The notes beneath the pieces were generated by a model. The model saw only the letters and a list, made by a program, of their open reading frames with translations, had not been told where the DNA came from and did not search any database. The position numbers were made by a program, and so were the translations under genes. From Mytilus trossulus (lineage: Eukaryota), in NCBI RefSeq assembly GCF_036588685.1, contig NC_086375.1, positions 92,690,001 through 92,754,000 of the forward strand: a stretch of DNA of 64,000 bases, read 5' to 3'. This document shows positions 34,084-53,247 of this stretch, piece by piece (positions within the stretch are counted from its first letter, which is position 1; every line of letters starts with the position of its first letter).

Positions 34084-37000
34084 TTAAAACTCTGTTTCAA
34101 ATCTCCCCGATTTTGTCCTGAAAGTGCGTGGAAATTCAGGTAAAGCATCACCTGATGTCAATGATACACTTCCATCATCGTCCTCAACTTCTTCTGTACA
34201 ATAGGGCAATGGTTCAGATATCATTACACCTTTTGTGTTTGGTCGTGTATCACCGCCATATTGTGAAACGGATGTTATGGCACCAAATCCAGTTGTGGTA
34301 GGTCTTGACATTAATCCAAAACTTAGACCTGTTATTCCTGTCATTCGCGTAATAACTCCATAGTTTCTTTGAAATTCAAACGGAGGAGGAAGTCTGCCTG
34401 GGATGAATATTATAACACCGACAGCAATCGTCTGCTTCATGTCACGGATTATAATTCTTCCAAGTGAAGGGTAATCAAAAAAACATTCAACGCATATCGG
34501 ACGAATAGGTTTTAAGTCAACAACACCCAATTCACCTGGACGCAGGCATGACGGATTTTCTTCTGCGCATTGGCCTGTTCGTCTATCACATCGTTCTTTT
34601 ATTTCTAAGAACTTGCAGGCGACCATTGACGTATGACAATGCAGAATAGGGGTGTAACCCTTCTTTATAGTACCCGGATGATTTAATATCATTATCTGAA
34701 AATATAAATGTGTTATGTGTATTTCATCTCGATTCATCACAGTGAACTATCTTCATCACAATCTATTGAAAAATAATAATTATGTTACCGTTCAAGTATC
34801 TCGAGAAATTCACAAAAATATATCTGATACTCAACTCATTTTCTAAAATATTTTACACGAGGAGGAGATGAACTTATATTGACTTGATATAACCCGTTCT
34901 GCTAATTTGTCTAACTAATGTGTATTCTTGATTATTTTTTTCTTTTCAAAAAGGGCAAATCATTCATTTACCAGTAATGCAAACTTTGACAGAATGTAGA
35001 TGATCGCCTCTGACAATCAGGTATTCAAACATTATTTGAGGGAGGTGATAAATATATTGAAGGGCACGCACACTATTTGACGGACGTTGTGCAAAGAATC
35101 ATTATGATGGTTACCAAATAAGAAACGGAGTTCAACTAAAAAATGATATTTCTATAAATATATACTTGAACACACCCGTGATATCGCGGGTCCGTGACTG
35201 AATTAAAATATATAACTATGCGTATGCCTTATTTTAGTATTGGTATTGTCATCTGATAAAGTCCCGCCATGCCGATTATAAGATGCACAGTTTTCTCTAC
35301 TTTCAAAATCTTTCTGTTTGAACCCGTCGACCTGGAACCTATCAATTATTGGTAATATTAATATTGGAAAACAAAACGGCTTGGAATGGAGTATCTTTTA
35401 CTCAACAGTATACAGCAAAATTCTAAATACACCGTTTGGTGGTGCGCCTGTCAGATGCGGAACGTACAGATGAGGTAATAGGTAACAGATGAATATACTA
35501 TTGGTATCGGTGTCGGATTCGATCCGGAACTTCTTAATTATTGGCAATATTAATTACGTGGAAAACAAAGGGACCTGGAGTGGTGTAATTTTTAATCAAC
35601 ATCATTGTACTATATTAGTTACATGTAAAGTTGAATTCTTTGATTCATCGTTTTTACGTGATGACGGCTGACAAATTGGACCTCGTAATTTTAGTATTAT
35701 AGATATGATCTACGCAGCGATGTTTGTAAAAATACTGAAATGAATCTCTAAGGTATTTCAACATAGAGCATATTTTTTAGGGGATGTCTATTGTTTTGTA
35801 ATTTACATGGACATTTATGGGGACTGTTTTATAAGTCGCATTGCTGAATATGACGGCGTGAGAATGATCGAAAATAACCGATTGAGTAGGGAATGTATTT
35901 ATACCTGAGCAGTAAACTGTGTGACGGCTTGTGGTGGATCGTCACAGGTATCCCCACACACATCACCTTTCCTGATGTCTTTAAGTGTATAATTCTCAAT
36001 CTGTATCCCCACATTGTCACCTGGCCTTGCTTCATCCATAACTTCTCGAAAAACTTGCACTGCCCGTACCTGTATGAACGAACAACTGATGATTATTCAA
36101 CAGGTTAACATACCACTTCGGAAAAAAAATCAGCTTTTGATTTCTGAACATCAAATTTAAGCAATACTGAAATGCCTCATCGTATTCCAAATTAAAAATG
36201 AAGTTGTTTTCATTTGATTATTTCCTTACAGTATAAATCAAACGTGTTTTTTATGTGGGTAGGGAATAGAAGGTCTCATACTTGCACTGCCCGGACCTAT
36301 ATGAACGAAACTCTGATGATTATTCAACAGGTTAACATACCACTTCGAAAAACAAAATCAGCTTTTGATTTCTAAACATCAATTTCAATCAATACCGAAA
36401 GGCCGCAACGTATTCCAAATTAAAAAAAATCAATTGAAGTTGATTTCATTTTATTACGTCCTTACAGTATAAATTAAATGGGTTTTTCATGTGGGTAGGG
36501 AATACAAGATCTCATAGAATGAACACAAATTATAGTTCAAATGATGTTCCTTAAAACAAATAATCTCAACTTTAAAATACGTATATCTAATACCAAGACA
36601 CATACTTCTTAATCTTGATTGAACTGTAAAATTCGATGGACTGTTTTCTAATATATGTTAACCCTTAACATTTGAAAAATAATTGAATTGTGGAATTCCA
36701 TGCAACTGTTATACAAGTGGGTGGTTTAGCTATCTATAAAAACAGGTTTAATCCACCGTTTTCTACCAAAAAAATGTCTGTATCAAGTCAGAAATATGAC
36801 AGCTGTTATACATTCGTTTGATGTTTGAGCCTTTGATGTTCCCATTTTATAAGAGACTTTCCGAATTGAATTTTCCTTGGAGTTCGACATCTTTGTTATT
36901 TTACTTTTTACTCCTCAAGTAATGGCCAGGCATAACAAACACAATTAAGGTGGTACCTAACACTACAGGGAGATAACTCTGTAATATCAGCTAAACGTTT

Positions 37001-52000: not shown

Positions 52001-53247
52001 AATTGCGTTCGTATTGTTTCCATGATTACAATAGTCGTGCTGCTTTTAAATTTTTCTTTATCTCTTAATTGTAAATTCAAAAGGAGAAGGGCCATTTTCC
52101 ACTGTAATTAATTAACGCACAGGTTCAAAATCTAAAATATGTTAAATTCTACTAGAAATGAATATCAGAGACTTATGTGATTGTGTATTTATAATAGTGG
52201 TAATCAATTTCACATATGTCTATACAGTTCCTGTTGAAGGCATTTTGATATAGAAAGGCAAATTATATATACATCGAATGACATCGGTAACACAATGAAC
52301 TAAATTAATAGAAAGACCATAGTTTTACTTCGTACACAACTTCAACCATAATTGATTTTATCTGCTGGAATTGTAATAGTTCATCCTATTATTGTCTTCG
52401 AAAAATTGTGTTATACACATACATAATTTTCCACTTAGTTTGGTAAATGATGTCTGCTTGTACTTTTTTTGGAGCATTTACCTAAAATTTGTTTTGAACA
52501 TTCATCGATTGTTTATTATTTGATATAAATAGAAATTAGCAAAAATATTGTTAGTACCTTATATCACACATGTTTGACTTGATTATACGCACTTCAGTAA
52601 AGACTGATAGACTCTTTGACGTGAAATAAATTTAGAGAATTGACCTTTTTTTTTTATAACATATCGTTGTTCTAATGGTTAACAATATACACACCTTCTG
52701 GAGTGGCGCCCCTAACCGTTTTCAGAATGGACGCTGATGGCACGTGTTTATGTTCTACTTCAACATTGGGTAAGCTATCGTCTGTACCTTCTGATGAAGG
52801 TGTACCCAACATTTGAACGCCACCAAACGACACATTAGCTGTTTTTGCTGACATTGGATATGGGGATTTCTTTATATTTGAAACTATTTCTCCCATCGCT
52901 CTCGCTGTAGACAATGCAGTTTTTTGTCTTTCAATGGAGGGTCTTCTCGCACCATTCATCTGTACTATAGGCGGTTTCTTGAAGCCATTATGTTCGATTG
53001 ATGGATTTTTTGTATCTTTTCCAGAAGTTGGTTTCTTTGTTAAATTTGCTCTGGATTGTTTCTTGTCGCCGTTTTGTACTGATGTCGAGTCTTTCTCAAT
53101 TTCAATTTTTGGAACTTCATCTTTCTTTTTTGAATGTGCAGAGTCCTGTTGATTTTCTATTGATCTCTTTCTAGGCCCTTTAGCAGTAGCAATTTCCACC
53201 CTTATTCTTGCAGTGTATAGATTCCTCTGTTTCTTTGCATTACTCAT
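34084..53247 (-). CDS. Divergent eEF1A-like translational GTPase, ~800 aa; exons 53247-52695, 50506-50450, 49738-49443, 48890-48711, 47420-47253, 46930-46651, 41021-40930, 36069-35905, 34695-34084
   Basis: All junctions are GT-AG with matching phases, and the total is 2403 nt. Motifs: [53 protein letters not shown]...GQTREH, SKMD, PISGWEGDN, PLRVPIHTVYKLG, ARPGDNVG, FTAQIMILNHPG, GYTPILHCHT, YPSLGR..IRDMKQTIAVGVI. The first two exons are linked by phase and splice-site logic only (lower confidence). Confidence 0.88.
35165..35703 (-). mobile_element. Non-autonomous Helitron
   Basis: Minus strand starts A|TCTATAATAC. It ends with the hairpin CCCGCGATATCACGGG then GTTCAAG|T (one mismatch from CTAG). 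Inserted between A and T with no TSD. Confidence 0.8.
36052..36517 (-). repeat. ~230-bp tandem duplication spanning the acceptor of eEF1A-like exon 8
   Basis: 36053-36279 is similar to 36280-36515. The upstream copy contains TAG|GTCCGGGCAGTGCAA|GTATGA. Confidence 0.9.
36949..37249. mobile_element. MITE with TTAA TSD (Kolobok-like)
   Basis: TTAA|GGTGGTACCTAACACT ... AGTGTTAGGTACCACC|TTAA. Confidence 0.85.
40231..40990 (-). repeat. 116-bp minisatellite (~6.5 units) derived from the 3' half and donor site of eEF1A-like exon 7
   Basis: Exon-like blocks end at 40930 (true exon), ~40816, 40700, 40584, 40468, 40352 and 40236, each followed by GTAAGG-like sequence. Confidence 0.95.
41550..44911 (-). 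mobile_element. Penelope-like retroelement, Naiad clade (family 2): 744-codon uninterrupted ORF (42677-44911) plus ~1.1-kb 3' UTR; N-terminal GIY-YIG domain missing
   Basis: CxC linker (LTCDCSNSP..GHVITGDL), GPKFREP, PADKASNN, LYWIPKLHK, TFDFSTLYTTIPH, GIPMGTNCAP, RYIDD, FLDL. The ORF stops after the RT thumb with no C-terminal endonuclease, as expected for N-terminal-EN PLEs. The 3' UTR has an internal ~250-bp tandem duplication (41952-42462). Confidence 0.88.
45900..46260 (+). mobile_element. Highly decayed LINE C-terminal remnant
   Basis: Broken frames give LRSG..NVEVGRF...RLCAYC...EKEFHLMLV.P.Y, typical of a LINE ORF2 C-terminal Cys/His region. Confidence 0.4.
47703..47850 (-). mobile_element. 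Retrozyme fragment with deleted hammerhead core, inserted in a Naiad family 1 3' remnant
   Basis: agttatcaaaggtaccaggattataatttaattcgccagacgcgcgtttcgtctacata|tgcgacgctc, with the CUGAUGA segment missing. The flanks 47594-47700 and 47865-47970 match the Naiad-1 3' UTR. Confidence 0.75.
49964..50181 (-). mobile_element. tRNA-derived (A/B box) element inserted in a (TA)n tract
   Basis: Minus strand GCCCAGGTGGTCGTGTGGTCTAGCG (A-box-like) ... GGTTCGAATCC (B box, 50042-50052). No acceptor stem. (TA)n on both sides. Confidence 0.7.
51776..51985 (+). mobile_element. Naiad family 1 3' UTR fragment
   Basis: Reverse-complement match to 3075-3280. Other decayed copies at ~13290-13690, 20240-20445, 58640-59240 and 63345-63505. 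Confidence 0.75.

What the first reader, a model, noticed from the sequence alone, without database searches (positions are those of the whole stretch)
34084..53247. An ~800-aa eEF1A paralog with a ~260-aa N-terminal and ~105-aa C-terminal extension
Seen: nine phase-consistent exons give an open frame. A basic low-complexity N-terminus (MSNAKKQR...) and an acidic Ser/Asp stretch (SSSSDDEDY) precede a complete eEF1A domain I-III. A novel tail (RLPPPFEFQRNYG...RFETEF*) replaces the Lys-rich end. It keeps the opisthokont eEF1A insert (WFSSWKVKRRSGGASGKTLLDAID), which points to eEF1A rather than HBS1L, eRF3 or GTPBP descent. The aa-tRNA pocket segment VKSVEMHHE is changed to VRAVQVFRE. Inference: an intact, intron-rich, neofunctionalised translational GTPase, perhaps with a tissue-specific or non-elongation role.
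Basis: partly seen in the sequence, partly recalled or inferred. Interest (0 to 1): 0.7.

Follow-up and report, generated by a model that had tools for sequence, protein, structure and literature searches.

The report
Repurposed elongation factor copy in bivalves
Mussels, scallops, ark shells and clams share an extra, spliced and conserved copy of the protein-synthesis factor eEF1A, with long floppy ends and a rebuilt tRNA-binding face, which likely no longer serves as the general elongation factor and is predicted to act as an anchored, GTP-binding RNA clamp.

Summary
The gene is real. Nine GT-AG exons give 800 aa, identical to RefSeq XP_063426058.1 (Mytilus trossulus, 'EF1-alpha 2-like'). 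Contigs of four runs from four studies splice exons 1-6. Exons 4 and 6 differ from one run by 9 silent and 0 replacement changes. Orthologues occur in scallops, an ark shell and clams. They form one long-stemmed clade inside eukaryotic eEF1A, apart from HBS1/eRF3. The core folds as eEF1A; the ends are predicted disordered but keep three short motifs, including a last E-[ST]-x-[LF] that looks like a PDZ ligand (recalled). Domain II is rebuilt: 18 of its 47 near-invariant eEF1A positions are lost in all 10 orthologues, 10 fixed at a new residue. Changed sites include published eEF1B-alpha contacts, ribosome contacts (R37, G258) and the tRNA cleft, which turns basic; the catalytic His stays. Best reading (0.4, inferred): a tethered, exchange-factor-independent RNA/tRNA clamp uncoupled from routine decoding. 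Main rival: a specialised elongation factor (0.3). Tissue and biochemistry are untested. I found no paper or earlier scan note on it.

The parts
52695..53247 (-). Coding exon 1 (aa 1-184): basic, low-complexity, predicted disordered N-terminal extension
   Evidence: joined to exon 2 in 4 of 4 runs; pLDDT under 50 over most of it
52816..52833 (-). Conserved N-terminal motif V-[ST]-F-G-G-V (aa 139-144), present in all bivalve orthologues; partner unknown
   Evidence: profile of non-Mytilus N-termini scores the Mytilus one 20.1 bits; best of 997 scored shuffles 11.9
50450..50506 (-). Coding exon 2 (57 nt, frame-neutral; absent from one M. galloprovincialis model, VDI64108)
49443..49738 (-). Coding exon 3: acidic Ser/Asp stretch, Pro/Arg linker, start of G domain with P-loop
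48711..48890 (-). Coding exon 4: switch I, rebuilt 74-79 loop, switch II with catalytic His349
47253..47420 (-). Coding exon 5: G domain, G4 box with N to S in Mytilus
46651..46930 (-). Coding exon 6: G5, opisthokont insert, start of domain II
40930..41021 (-). Coding exon 7: domain II beta-turn with Glu512 in place of the Gly equal to EF-Tu G222
35905..36069 (-). Coding exon 8: domain II A76-pocket segment
34084..34695 (-). Coding exon 9: domain III and, in the same exon, the 104-aa tail and stop
34291..34308 (-). Tail motif [SR]-R-P-x-T (aa 727-732), shared by all orthologues
34087..34125 (-). Terminal motif T-[FY]-R-T-x-S-G-[RK]-[FL]-E-[ST]-x-[FL]-COOH (aa 788-800); last four residues fit a class I PDZ ligand (consensus recalled)
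   Evidence: (9 of 10 orthologues; 0 of 259 other proteins held end in E[ST]x[VLIF])
40236..40986 (-). 116-bp x 6.5 tandem array made from the 3' half of exon 7 plus its splice donor; intronic, not part of the 800-aa frame
   Evidence: also in M. edulis, where model CAG2237111.1 reads it as coding

Best explanation
This is an intact, expressed, ancient bivalve duplicate of eEF1A that likely works as a tethered, GTP-binding RNA (probably tRNA-end) clamp uncoupled from routine ribosomal decoding. Shown: gene structure, splicing of exons 1-6, purifying selection, orthology across Mytilida, Pectinida, Arcida, Venerida and Myida, descent from eEF1A, and the residue changes. Predicted: eEF1A fold with disordered ends. 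Inferred step 1: it binds GTP/GDP, because the P-loop GKS, DxPGH and [NS]KM[DE] boxes are kept. Inferred step 2: it recharges without eEF1B-alpha, because the sites named as eEF1B-alpha-specific are replaced, as in EFL. Inferred step 3: it is poorly switched on by the decoding ribosome, because the 18S-stacking Arg37 becomes Glu/Ala, the h5-facing turn Gly becomes Glu/Asp/Asn/Thr/Ala/Ser, and clams lose P-loop Asp17. Inferred step 4: the domain I/II cleft is now basic and binds a polyanion, most simply an RNA 3' end with less need for the amino acid. Inferred step 5: the last residues dock on a PDZ-type scaffold and place the protein in the cell.
For: Of 229 columns at least 95% conserved in 68 canonical eEF1A rows, 37 are lost in all 10 orthologues; 18 of 47 lie in domain II against 19 of 182 elsewhere (Fisher p 2e-5), and 13 are fixed at one new residue, 10 of them in domain II (p 1e-5). 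The domain II/G change ratio is 1.55-2.26 in the orthologues against a median of 1.04 and a 95th percentile of 1.89 in 52 other divergent relatives. Sites that Atkinson 2014 (PMC3938643, sections read) names as eEF1B-alpha contacts and that changed: the 74-79 loop (I75, A/S76, W78), Q251, D252, D362, H367 (human numbers). Arg37 stacks on 18S A464 (Shao 2016, PMC5119991, passages); it is R in 68 of 68 canonical rows, E in 9 and A in 1 of 10 orthologues. G258 aligns with E. coli EF-Tu G222; this turn contacts h5 in GTPase activation (PMC3950680, passage), and the G222D paper was seen only as a reference-list title. Twenty cleft positions carry net charge 0 in 57 of 68 canonical rows and +5 to +7 in the 10 orthologues (set picked by hand after seeing the changes). 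RNA-facing positions are kept or changed mildly: R69, N101, Y254, K255, R/K266, R381, R423, R427, E293Q, R322K. GTPBP1 is a precedent for a changed pocket that binds deacylated tRNA (PMC12775451, passages). The tail is 90-94 of 104 identical in unnamed mussel-like relatives, as conserved as domain III.
Against: No binding, GTPase, localisation or tissue data. SRL-facing H15 and catalytic H95 are kept in 10 of 10, S53 in 7 of 10, K64 in 6 of 10, and Mytilus keeps D17 and T72, which fits a factor that still works on ribosomes. Other listed eEF1B-alpha sites are kept: D35 and G257 in 10 of 10. eRF3 has a different turn (KDxGT) and GTPBP1 lacks the Arg37 helix, yet both work on ribosomes, so these losses do not prove uncoupling. 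The F-R pair matches E. coli EF-Tu, and I recall, without finding the paper, that EF-Tu E259Q behaves like wild type. A basic cleft could bind an acidic protein as well as RNA. The Fisher tests treat columns as independent and the orthologues share one stem. The PDZ reading is a motif match from memory; Mytilus ends in Phe, and the Tegillarca model ends early and lacks the terminal motif.
Confidence: 0.4

Rival explanations
1. A specialised elongation factor for one tissue or stage. It still delivers aminoacyl-tRNA, slowly or for local translation at an anchored site, and recharges itself like EFL; it works like GTPBP1 or oocyte 42Sp50.
For: H15, H95, G-boxes and most RNA-facing arginines kept; model matches the ribosome-bound GTP-like form of eEF1A best (rmsd 1.3-1.4 A), though that reflects the alignment given; pocket changes E293Q, R322K are mild and F-R matches EF-Tu; GTPBP1 decodes despite a changed pocket and no Arg37 helix; 42Sp50 is an ovary-biased eEF1A paralogue (PMC9403048, passages).
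Against: EFL keeps the aminoacyl pocket strongly conserved, whereas domain II is the most changed part here. R37 charge reversal, G258 and T261 loss in all, D17 loss in 4 of 4 clams. The vertebrate EF1-alpha-like clade in my set keeps all these residues (68 of 68).
Confidence: 0.3
2. A cytoskeletal or scaffold protein that grew out of eEF1A's side jobs. The basic cleft binds an acidic protein (such as tubulin tails or actin), and the terminal motifs link it to the cell cortex or cilia.
For: eEF1A has actin-bundling and other side functions; domain III, linked to cytoskeleton organisation (PMC8807479, passage), is little changed in mussels, scallops and venerid clams (23-26% of conserved columns); short conserved motifs in disordered ends are typical of scaffold binding (general knowledge).
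Against: N331, listed among actin-bundling sites (PMC3868327, passage), is replaced in 9 of 9 orthologues that have the column; the Lys-rich end is gone; RNA-facing residues and the GTPase machinery are kept.
Confidence: 0.2
3. A convergent HBS1/eRF3-like quality-control GTPase that carries a protein tRNA-mimic (Pelota, eRF1 or a new one) to stalled ribosomes.
For: Long variable N-terminal extension and loss of exchange-factor sites, as in eRF3 and HBS1 (PMC4342817, passage).
Against: eRF3 and Hbs1l have a more electronegative cleft for their basic partners, while this cleft is basic; both mostly keep a basic residue at position 37 in the rows seen.
Confidence: 0.07
4. A decaying duplicate, or a chimeric gene model in which the extensions are not part of the protein.
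For: Fast evolution (stem 0.56-0.93 changes per site); transposon-laden introns; two public models are truncated or inflated.
Against: Spliced joints in 4 studies; 9 silent and 0 replacement differences in exons 4 and 6 (p 2e-6 under neutrality); tail in the same exon as domain III; homologous ends in five bivalve orders.
Confidence: 0.03

Closest known systems
Canonical animal eEF1A (eEF1A1/eEF1A2)
   Same: Three-domain core aligns without gaps over 435 residues (phmmer 567 bits); about 50% identity; opisthokont insert; G-boxes and catalytic His; Foldseek best hits 8g5z and 5lzs. Core introns fall at CDS positions 144, 324, 492, 772, 864, 1029; 144, 324, 772 and 1029 match human EEF1A1 as I recall it, which would mean a DNA-level duplication.
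   Different: 258-aa N and 104-aa C extensions with conserved motifs; 37 of 229 near-invariant positions lost clade-wide; changed eEF1B-alpha, ribosome and tRNA-cleft sites.
EFL (EF-like)
   Same: eEF1A-derived; differs from eEF1A at several of the same eEF1B-alpha contacts (74-79 loop, Q251/D252, D362 region).
   Different: New residues differ from EFL's; no EFL insertions; D35 kept; it coexists with canonical eEF1A (Pecten has both); domain II is rebuilt rather than conserved.
GTPBP1/GTPBP2
   Same: eEF1A-related GTPase with extra ends, changed A76 pocket and changed shoulder contact.
   Different: Separate old subfamily with a folded N-domain and H-loop in place of helix alpha2; this protein keeps alpha2 and sits inside eEF1A.
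HBS1L and eRF3
   Same: eEF1A-family core with a long flexible N-terminal extension.
   Different: 270 and 249 bits against 567 for eEF1A; separate clade at 99 support; no opisthokont insert; acidic rather than basic cleft; no C-terminal tail.
42Sp50 (vertebrate oocyte eEF1A paralogue)
   Same: Lineage-restricted divergent eEF1A duplicate, proposed to store aminoacyl-tRNA.
   Different: About 455 aa with no extensions; the vertebrate EF1-alpha-like clade that I take for it (label inferred) is separate and far less diverged.

Membership tests
eEF1A lineage (by descent) | G domain plus domains II and III | tested here: met
   Pfam PF00009, PF03144, PF03143/PF22594; 429 of 800 residues at pLDDT 90 or more, rmsd 1.3-1.4 A to eEF1A
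eEF1A lineage (by descent) | Groups with eukaryotic eEF1A to the exclusion of HBS1, eRF3 and archaeal EF1A | tested here: met
   SH-aLRT 99 in a quick tree of 51 rows; position inside eEF1A unresolved
eEF1A lineage (by descent) | Opisthokont 12-aa insert | tested here: met
Canonical eEF1A (working elongation factor) | Conserved aminoacyl-tRNA pocket and 5'-phosphate contacts (K100, Q251, D252, E293, H295, R322) | tested here: not met
   K100H, Q251H, D252T/S, E293Q, R322K in all orthologues with the column; H295 F or H; several changes are mild
Canonical eEF1A (working elongation factor) | eEF1B-alpha interface | tested here: not met
   74-79 loop, Q251, D252, D362, H367 changed; D35 and G257 kept; sequence only
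Canonical eEF1A (working elongation factor) | Ribosome contacts (R37, E48, S53, domain II turn, H15, H95) | tested here: inconclusive
   R37, G258, T261 lost in all; H15, H95 kept in all; S53 kept in 7 of 10
Canonical eEF1A (working elongation factor) | Delivers aminoacyl-tRNA with ribosome-stimulated GTP hydrolysis | not testable with these tools
   needs biochemistry
HBS1L / eRF3 | Clusters with HBS1 or eRF3 | tested here: not met
HBS1L / eRF3 | HBS1 N-terminal domain (PF08938) or other known domain in the extension | tested here: not met
   0 Pfam families on exon 1; none precomputed on the full protein
EFL | EFL insertions and signature residues (P35, changed 74-79 patch of the EFL type) | tested here: not met
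   ungapped to eEF1A2; D35 kept, patch reads D-[ST]-K-x-R-[RK]; no EFL row was labelled in my trees
GTPBP1/2 | Loss of helix alpha2, H-loop, folded N-domain | tested here: not met
   helix at 290-302 present, N-terminus disordered in the model (features)
Class I PDZ ligand | Free C-terminus x-[ST]-x-hydrophobic that binds a PDZ domain | tested here: inconclusive
   pattern met in 10 of 10 orthologues against 3 of 259 other proteins; consensus recalled; binding not tested

The most novel reading that the evidence does not exclude
An undescribed subfamily of eEF1A-derived GTPases, older than the split of mussels and clams, that left the ribosome: a self-recharging, GTP-gated tRNA/RNA clamp held on PDZ scaffolds by its last four residues, which stores or localises RNA at a membrane or ciliary site. 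It would stand beside eRF3, HBS1 and EFL as a further functional offshoot of eEF1A, and as a natural case of one moonlighting role split off and fixed.
Probability: 0.25. Interest if true: 0.75.

Novelty: new variant of a known kind. Interest (0 to 1): 0.52.

Why it matters
Animal eEF1A is one of the most conserved proteins known, and its animal duplicates are usually near-identical isoforms (PMC4342817, passage). A duplicate kept across five bivalve orders, with a rebuilt and re-fixed domain II and new docking motifs, is a natural experiment on which eEF1A surfaces serve decoding, nucleotide exchange or side jobs. It carries by nature the equivalents of laboratory mutations: EF-Tu G222D in scallops, yeast E286K in 8 of 9 orthologues, and changes at N153 (Ser, Mytilus) and D156 (Glu, scallops), the two G4 sites mutated in yeast. 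In practice, databases label it 'elongation factor 1-alpha', so it can be mistaken for the housekeeping gene in bivalve expression or phylogenetic work.

Tried and rejected
No whole genome is held for this window, so copy number, synteny and the canonical gene's introns were not checked. The third homologue search covered only proteins of 1407-4015 aa and added no orthologue. The range outside bivalves, and in oysters and freshwater mussels, is therefore open: none appeared among the best 120 of 1180 hits or the best 150 of 20,236 representatives, but both lists are cut and clustering can hide members. Metagenome scans found nothing. ESM Atlas gave only leads under 0.9 for the tails. A complex prediction of the core with the N-terminal motif returned no answer (score 0.01) and is not used as evidence. 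The first fold (12 rows) was poor (pLDDT 50) and was replaced by a 132-row fold. My first large tree dropped most orthologues through a length filter and is not used for placement; one HBS1 row with an internal duplication was dropped; the careful 51-row search did not finish, so one search is a quick tree; one search left out 6 near-duplicate or gappy orthologues, 5 eEF1A rows and all outgroups, and its bootstrap had not settled. No run is on record as RNA, and contigs cannot give tissue or level. Silent/replacement counts use only differences that one search listed for run X6: complete for exons 4 and 6 (9 of 9), partial for exon 5 (9 of 12), exon 3 (3 of 7) and exon 1 (15 of 29). Paper searches: eEF1A+paralog+bivalve (4 listed, none on this gene by title or abstract), six accession numbers (0 papers), 'elongation factor 1-alpha-like' with bivalve terms (phrase absent from all 20 listed), translational GTPase paralogues; the passages seen in the 2015 trGTPase survey name no bivalve subfamily. 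Two searches for published intron positions failed. Two papers were not held. I read no supplements; bivalve expression tables there could name this gene. Known-motif readings of V[ST]FGGV (PP1 RVxF, LIR, WIRS; all recalled) fit poorly and were dropped. The scan's own notes held nothing relevant.
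Full report
Gene. All eight introns are GT-AG and the frame gives 800 aa. That protein is identical to RefSeq XP_063426058.1 of Mytilus trossulus; M. edulis and M. galloprovincialis models differ at 17 and 20 positions, 13 and 14 of them in the N-terminal 256 residues. I laid four of 16 listed runs on 46550-53920. Their contigs skip the predicted introns exactly: exon 1-2 in 4 of 4 runs, 2-3 in 4 of 4, 3-4 in 3 of 4, 4-5 in 3 of 4, 5-6 in 4 of 4. The tail shares exon 9 with domain III, so it needs no joint. 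Against that contig, exons 4 and 6 show 9 silent and 0 replacement differences (p 2e-6 if neutral); the listed differences in exons 3-6 are 19 silent and 2 replacement; the listed ones in exon 1 are 6 silent and 9 replacement. The core is under strong constraint and the N-terminus under weaker constraint.

Relatives. Orthologues with both extensions were found in four scallops, the ark shell Tegillarca, and the clams Ruditapes, Mercenaria, Dreissena and Mya. All carry automatic EF1-alpha-like or hypothetical names. In a quick tree of 51 rows they form one clade (100), inside eukaryotic eEF1A (99) and apart from HBS1/eRF3 (99); the clade splits into clams and pteriomorphs. A careful tree of 27 rows agrees (100/100) and gives a stem of 0.93 changes per site against a median end branch of 0.12, but does not resolve where in eEF1A it attaches. 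By phmmer the solved eEF1A2 scores 567 bits, archaeal EF1A 420, HBS1L 270 and eRF3 249. The opisthokont insert is present. Core introns sit at eEF1A CDS positions 144, 324, 492, 772, 864 and 1029; four of these match human EEF1A1 as I recall it, which I could not confirm in print. The range outside bivalves is open.

Shape. With 132 aligned rows AlphaFold2 gives a confident three-domain core (429 residues at pLDDT 90 or more) and unfolded ends; the best structural matches are ribosome-bound mammalian eEF1A at 1.3-1.4 A. The ends differ greatly between orders yet are homologous: profiles built without Mytilus score the Mytilus N-terminus 20.1 bits and the tail 25.2 bits, against shuffle maxima of 11.9 (997 scored) and 11.0 (979 scored). 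Three islands persist: V-[ST]-F-G-G-V, [SR]-R-P-x-T and a terminal T-[FY]-R-T-x-S-G-[RK]-[FL]-E-[ST]-x-[FL]. Nine of 10 orthologues end in E-[ST]-x-[LF]; 0 of 259 other proteins held do. From memory this is a class I PDZ ligand. The Tegillarca model stops early and also lacks ten residues of switch II, so it may be incomplete. In unnamed mussel-like relatives the tail is 90-94 of 104 identical, like domain III.

What changed in the core (human eEF1A numbers, Mytilus number minus 254). Of 229 columns at least 95% conserved in 68 canonical rows, 98 are kept in all 10 orthologues, 37 are lost in all and 94 are mixed. Domain II holds 18 of the 37 losses and 10 of the 13 positions fixed at one new residue. 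This bias is stronger than in most of 52 other divergent relatives (ratio 1.55-2.26 against median 1.04; 95th percentile 1.89). It points to a new, then conserved, surface rather than decay. Nucleotide site: GKS, DxPGH with H95, and K154 are kept; N153 is Ser in Mytilus, D156 is Glu in scallops, T72 is Ser in 9 of 10, D17 is lost in 4 of 4 clams. Exchange-factor site: Atkinson 2014 (PMC3938643, abstract to start of discussion read) names the 74-79 loop, yeast Q249/D250/G255 and the D360 region as eEF1B-alpha-specific and changed in EFL; here the loop, Q251, D252, D362 and H367 are changed, while D35 and G257 are kept. Ribosome site: Arg37, which stacks on 18S A464 (PMC5119991, passages), is Glu in 9 and Ala in 1. 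G258 aligns with E. coli EF-Tu G222 and is never Gly; scallops have Asp, the substitution that a reference-list title says blocks GTPase activation on the ribosome (paper not seen). H15 and H95 are kept. tRNA site: E293Q, R322K and K100H are fixed; E288 is Lys in 8 of 9, the equivalent of the yeast misreading allele E286K (PMC1885216, passages). EF-Tu residues F218, E259, R262 and R288 contact the tRNA ends (PMC9071432, passages); their equivalents here are Y, Q, R/H and K, all mild. Twenty hand-picked cleft positions move from net 0 to +5 to +7, the opposite of the more electronegative cleft of eRF3 and Hbs1l.

Mechanism. Taken together the protein likely still binds GTP, likely needs no eEF1B-alpha, is likely a poor partner of the decoding ribosome, and has a basic cleft that keeps its RNA-facing residues. 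I therefore favour a tethered RNA or tRNA clamp (0.4). GTPBP1 shows that a changed pocket can bind deacylated tRNA and still decode (PMC12775451, passages), so a specialised elongation factor remains a close rival (0.3), followed by a cytoskeletal scaffold (0.2), an HBS1-like carrier (0.07) and decay or artefact (0.03). Every step after the sequence facts is inference.

Standing. By descent it is an eEF1A; it fails the sequence tests for a canonical working eEF1A, and for HBS1, eRF3, EFL and GTPBP. The genes are in public databases under generic names. My searches and the passages seen in the 2015 survey of translational GTPases showed no description of this clade; subscription papers and supplements were not searched. 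I class it as a new variant of a known kind, interest 0.52.

Noticed in passing
window 40236-40986 (intron 7): A minisatellite of 116 bp x 6.5 built from the 3' half of exon 7 and its splice donor; five of six copies shown keep the GT donor. It is also in M. edulis, where an automatic model (CAG2237111.1, 1109 aa) reads the copies as coding. Whether the spare donors are ever used was not tested.
   Followed up: partly
window 42680-44953 (-), intron 6: An open frame of 758 codons with reverse-transcriptase motifs (Pfam RVT_1 only weakly, E 0.03); looks like a Penelope-type retroelement from memory; related fragments at 3527-4032 and 55134-55326.
   Followed up: partly
window 9815-11026 (+) and 27079-28240 (+): Two similar major-facilitator transporter genes (MFS_1); the second lies in two overlapping frames, so it has a frameshift or a short intron.
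   Followed up: no
window 15261-17981 (-) and 6049-6819 (-): LINE-type elements: a 907-codon endonuclease plus reverse-transcriptase frame and a reverse-transcriptase fragment.
   Followed up: no
window 11469-12102, 21306-22757, 53928-54900: Tandem arrays: two of 79-bp period with different units, and a block of 20- and 30-bp related units.
   Followed up: no
window 50450-50506: The 57-nt exon 2 is missing from one M. galloprovincialis model and replaced in the M. coruscus model; it is included in 4 of 4 laid runs, so skipping is possible but not seen among the joints shown.
   Followed up: partly
clam orthologues P0025, P0026, P0147, P0304 (tail): The clam tails carry R-S-V-[TS]-F, which fits a PP1-docking RVxF pattern as I recall it; mussels and scallops lack it there.
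   Followed up: no
protein P0027: An animal-type eEF1A filed in NCBI under Escherichia coli; it groups with gastropod-like rows, so it is likely a contaminant record.
   Followed up: no
proteins P0141 and P0160: Other odd eEF1A derivatives among unnamed records: a 977-aa protein with two divergent eEF1A units in tandem, and a 526-aa divergent eEF1A with an acidic Pro/Tyr tail that does not join the bivalve clade.
   Followed up: no
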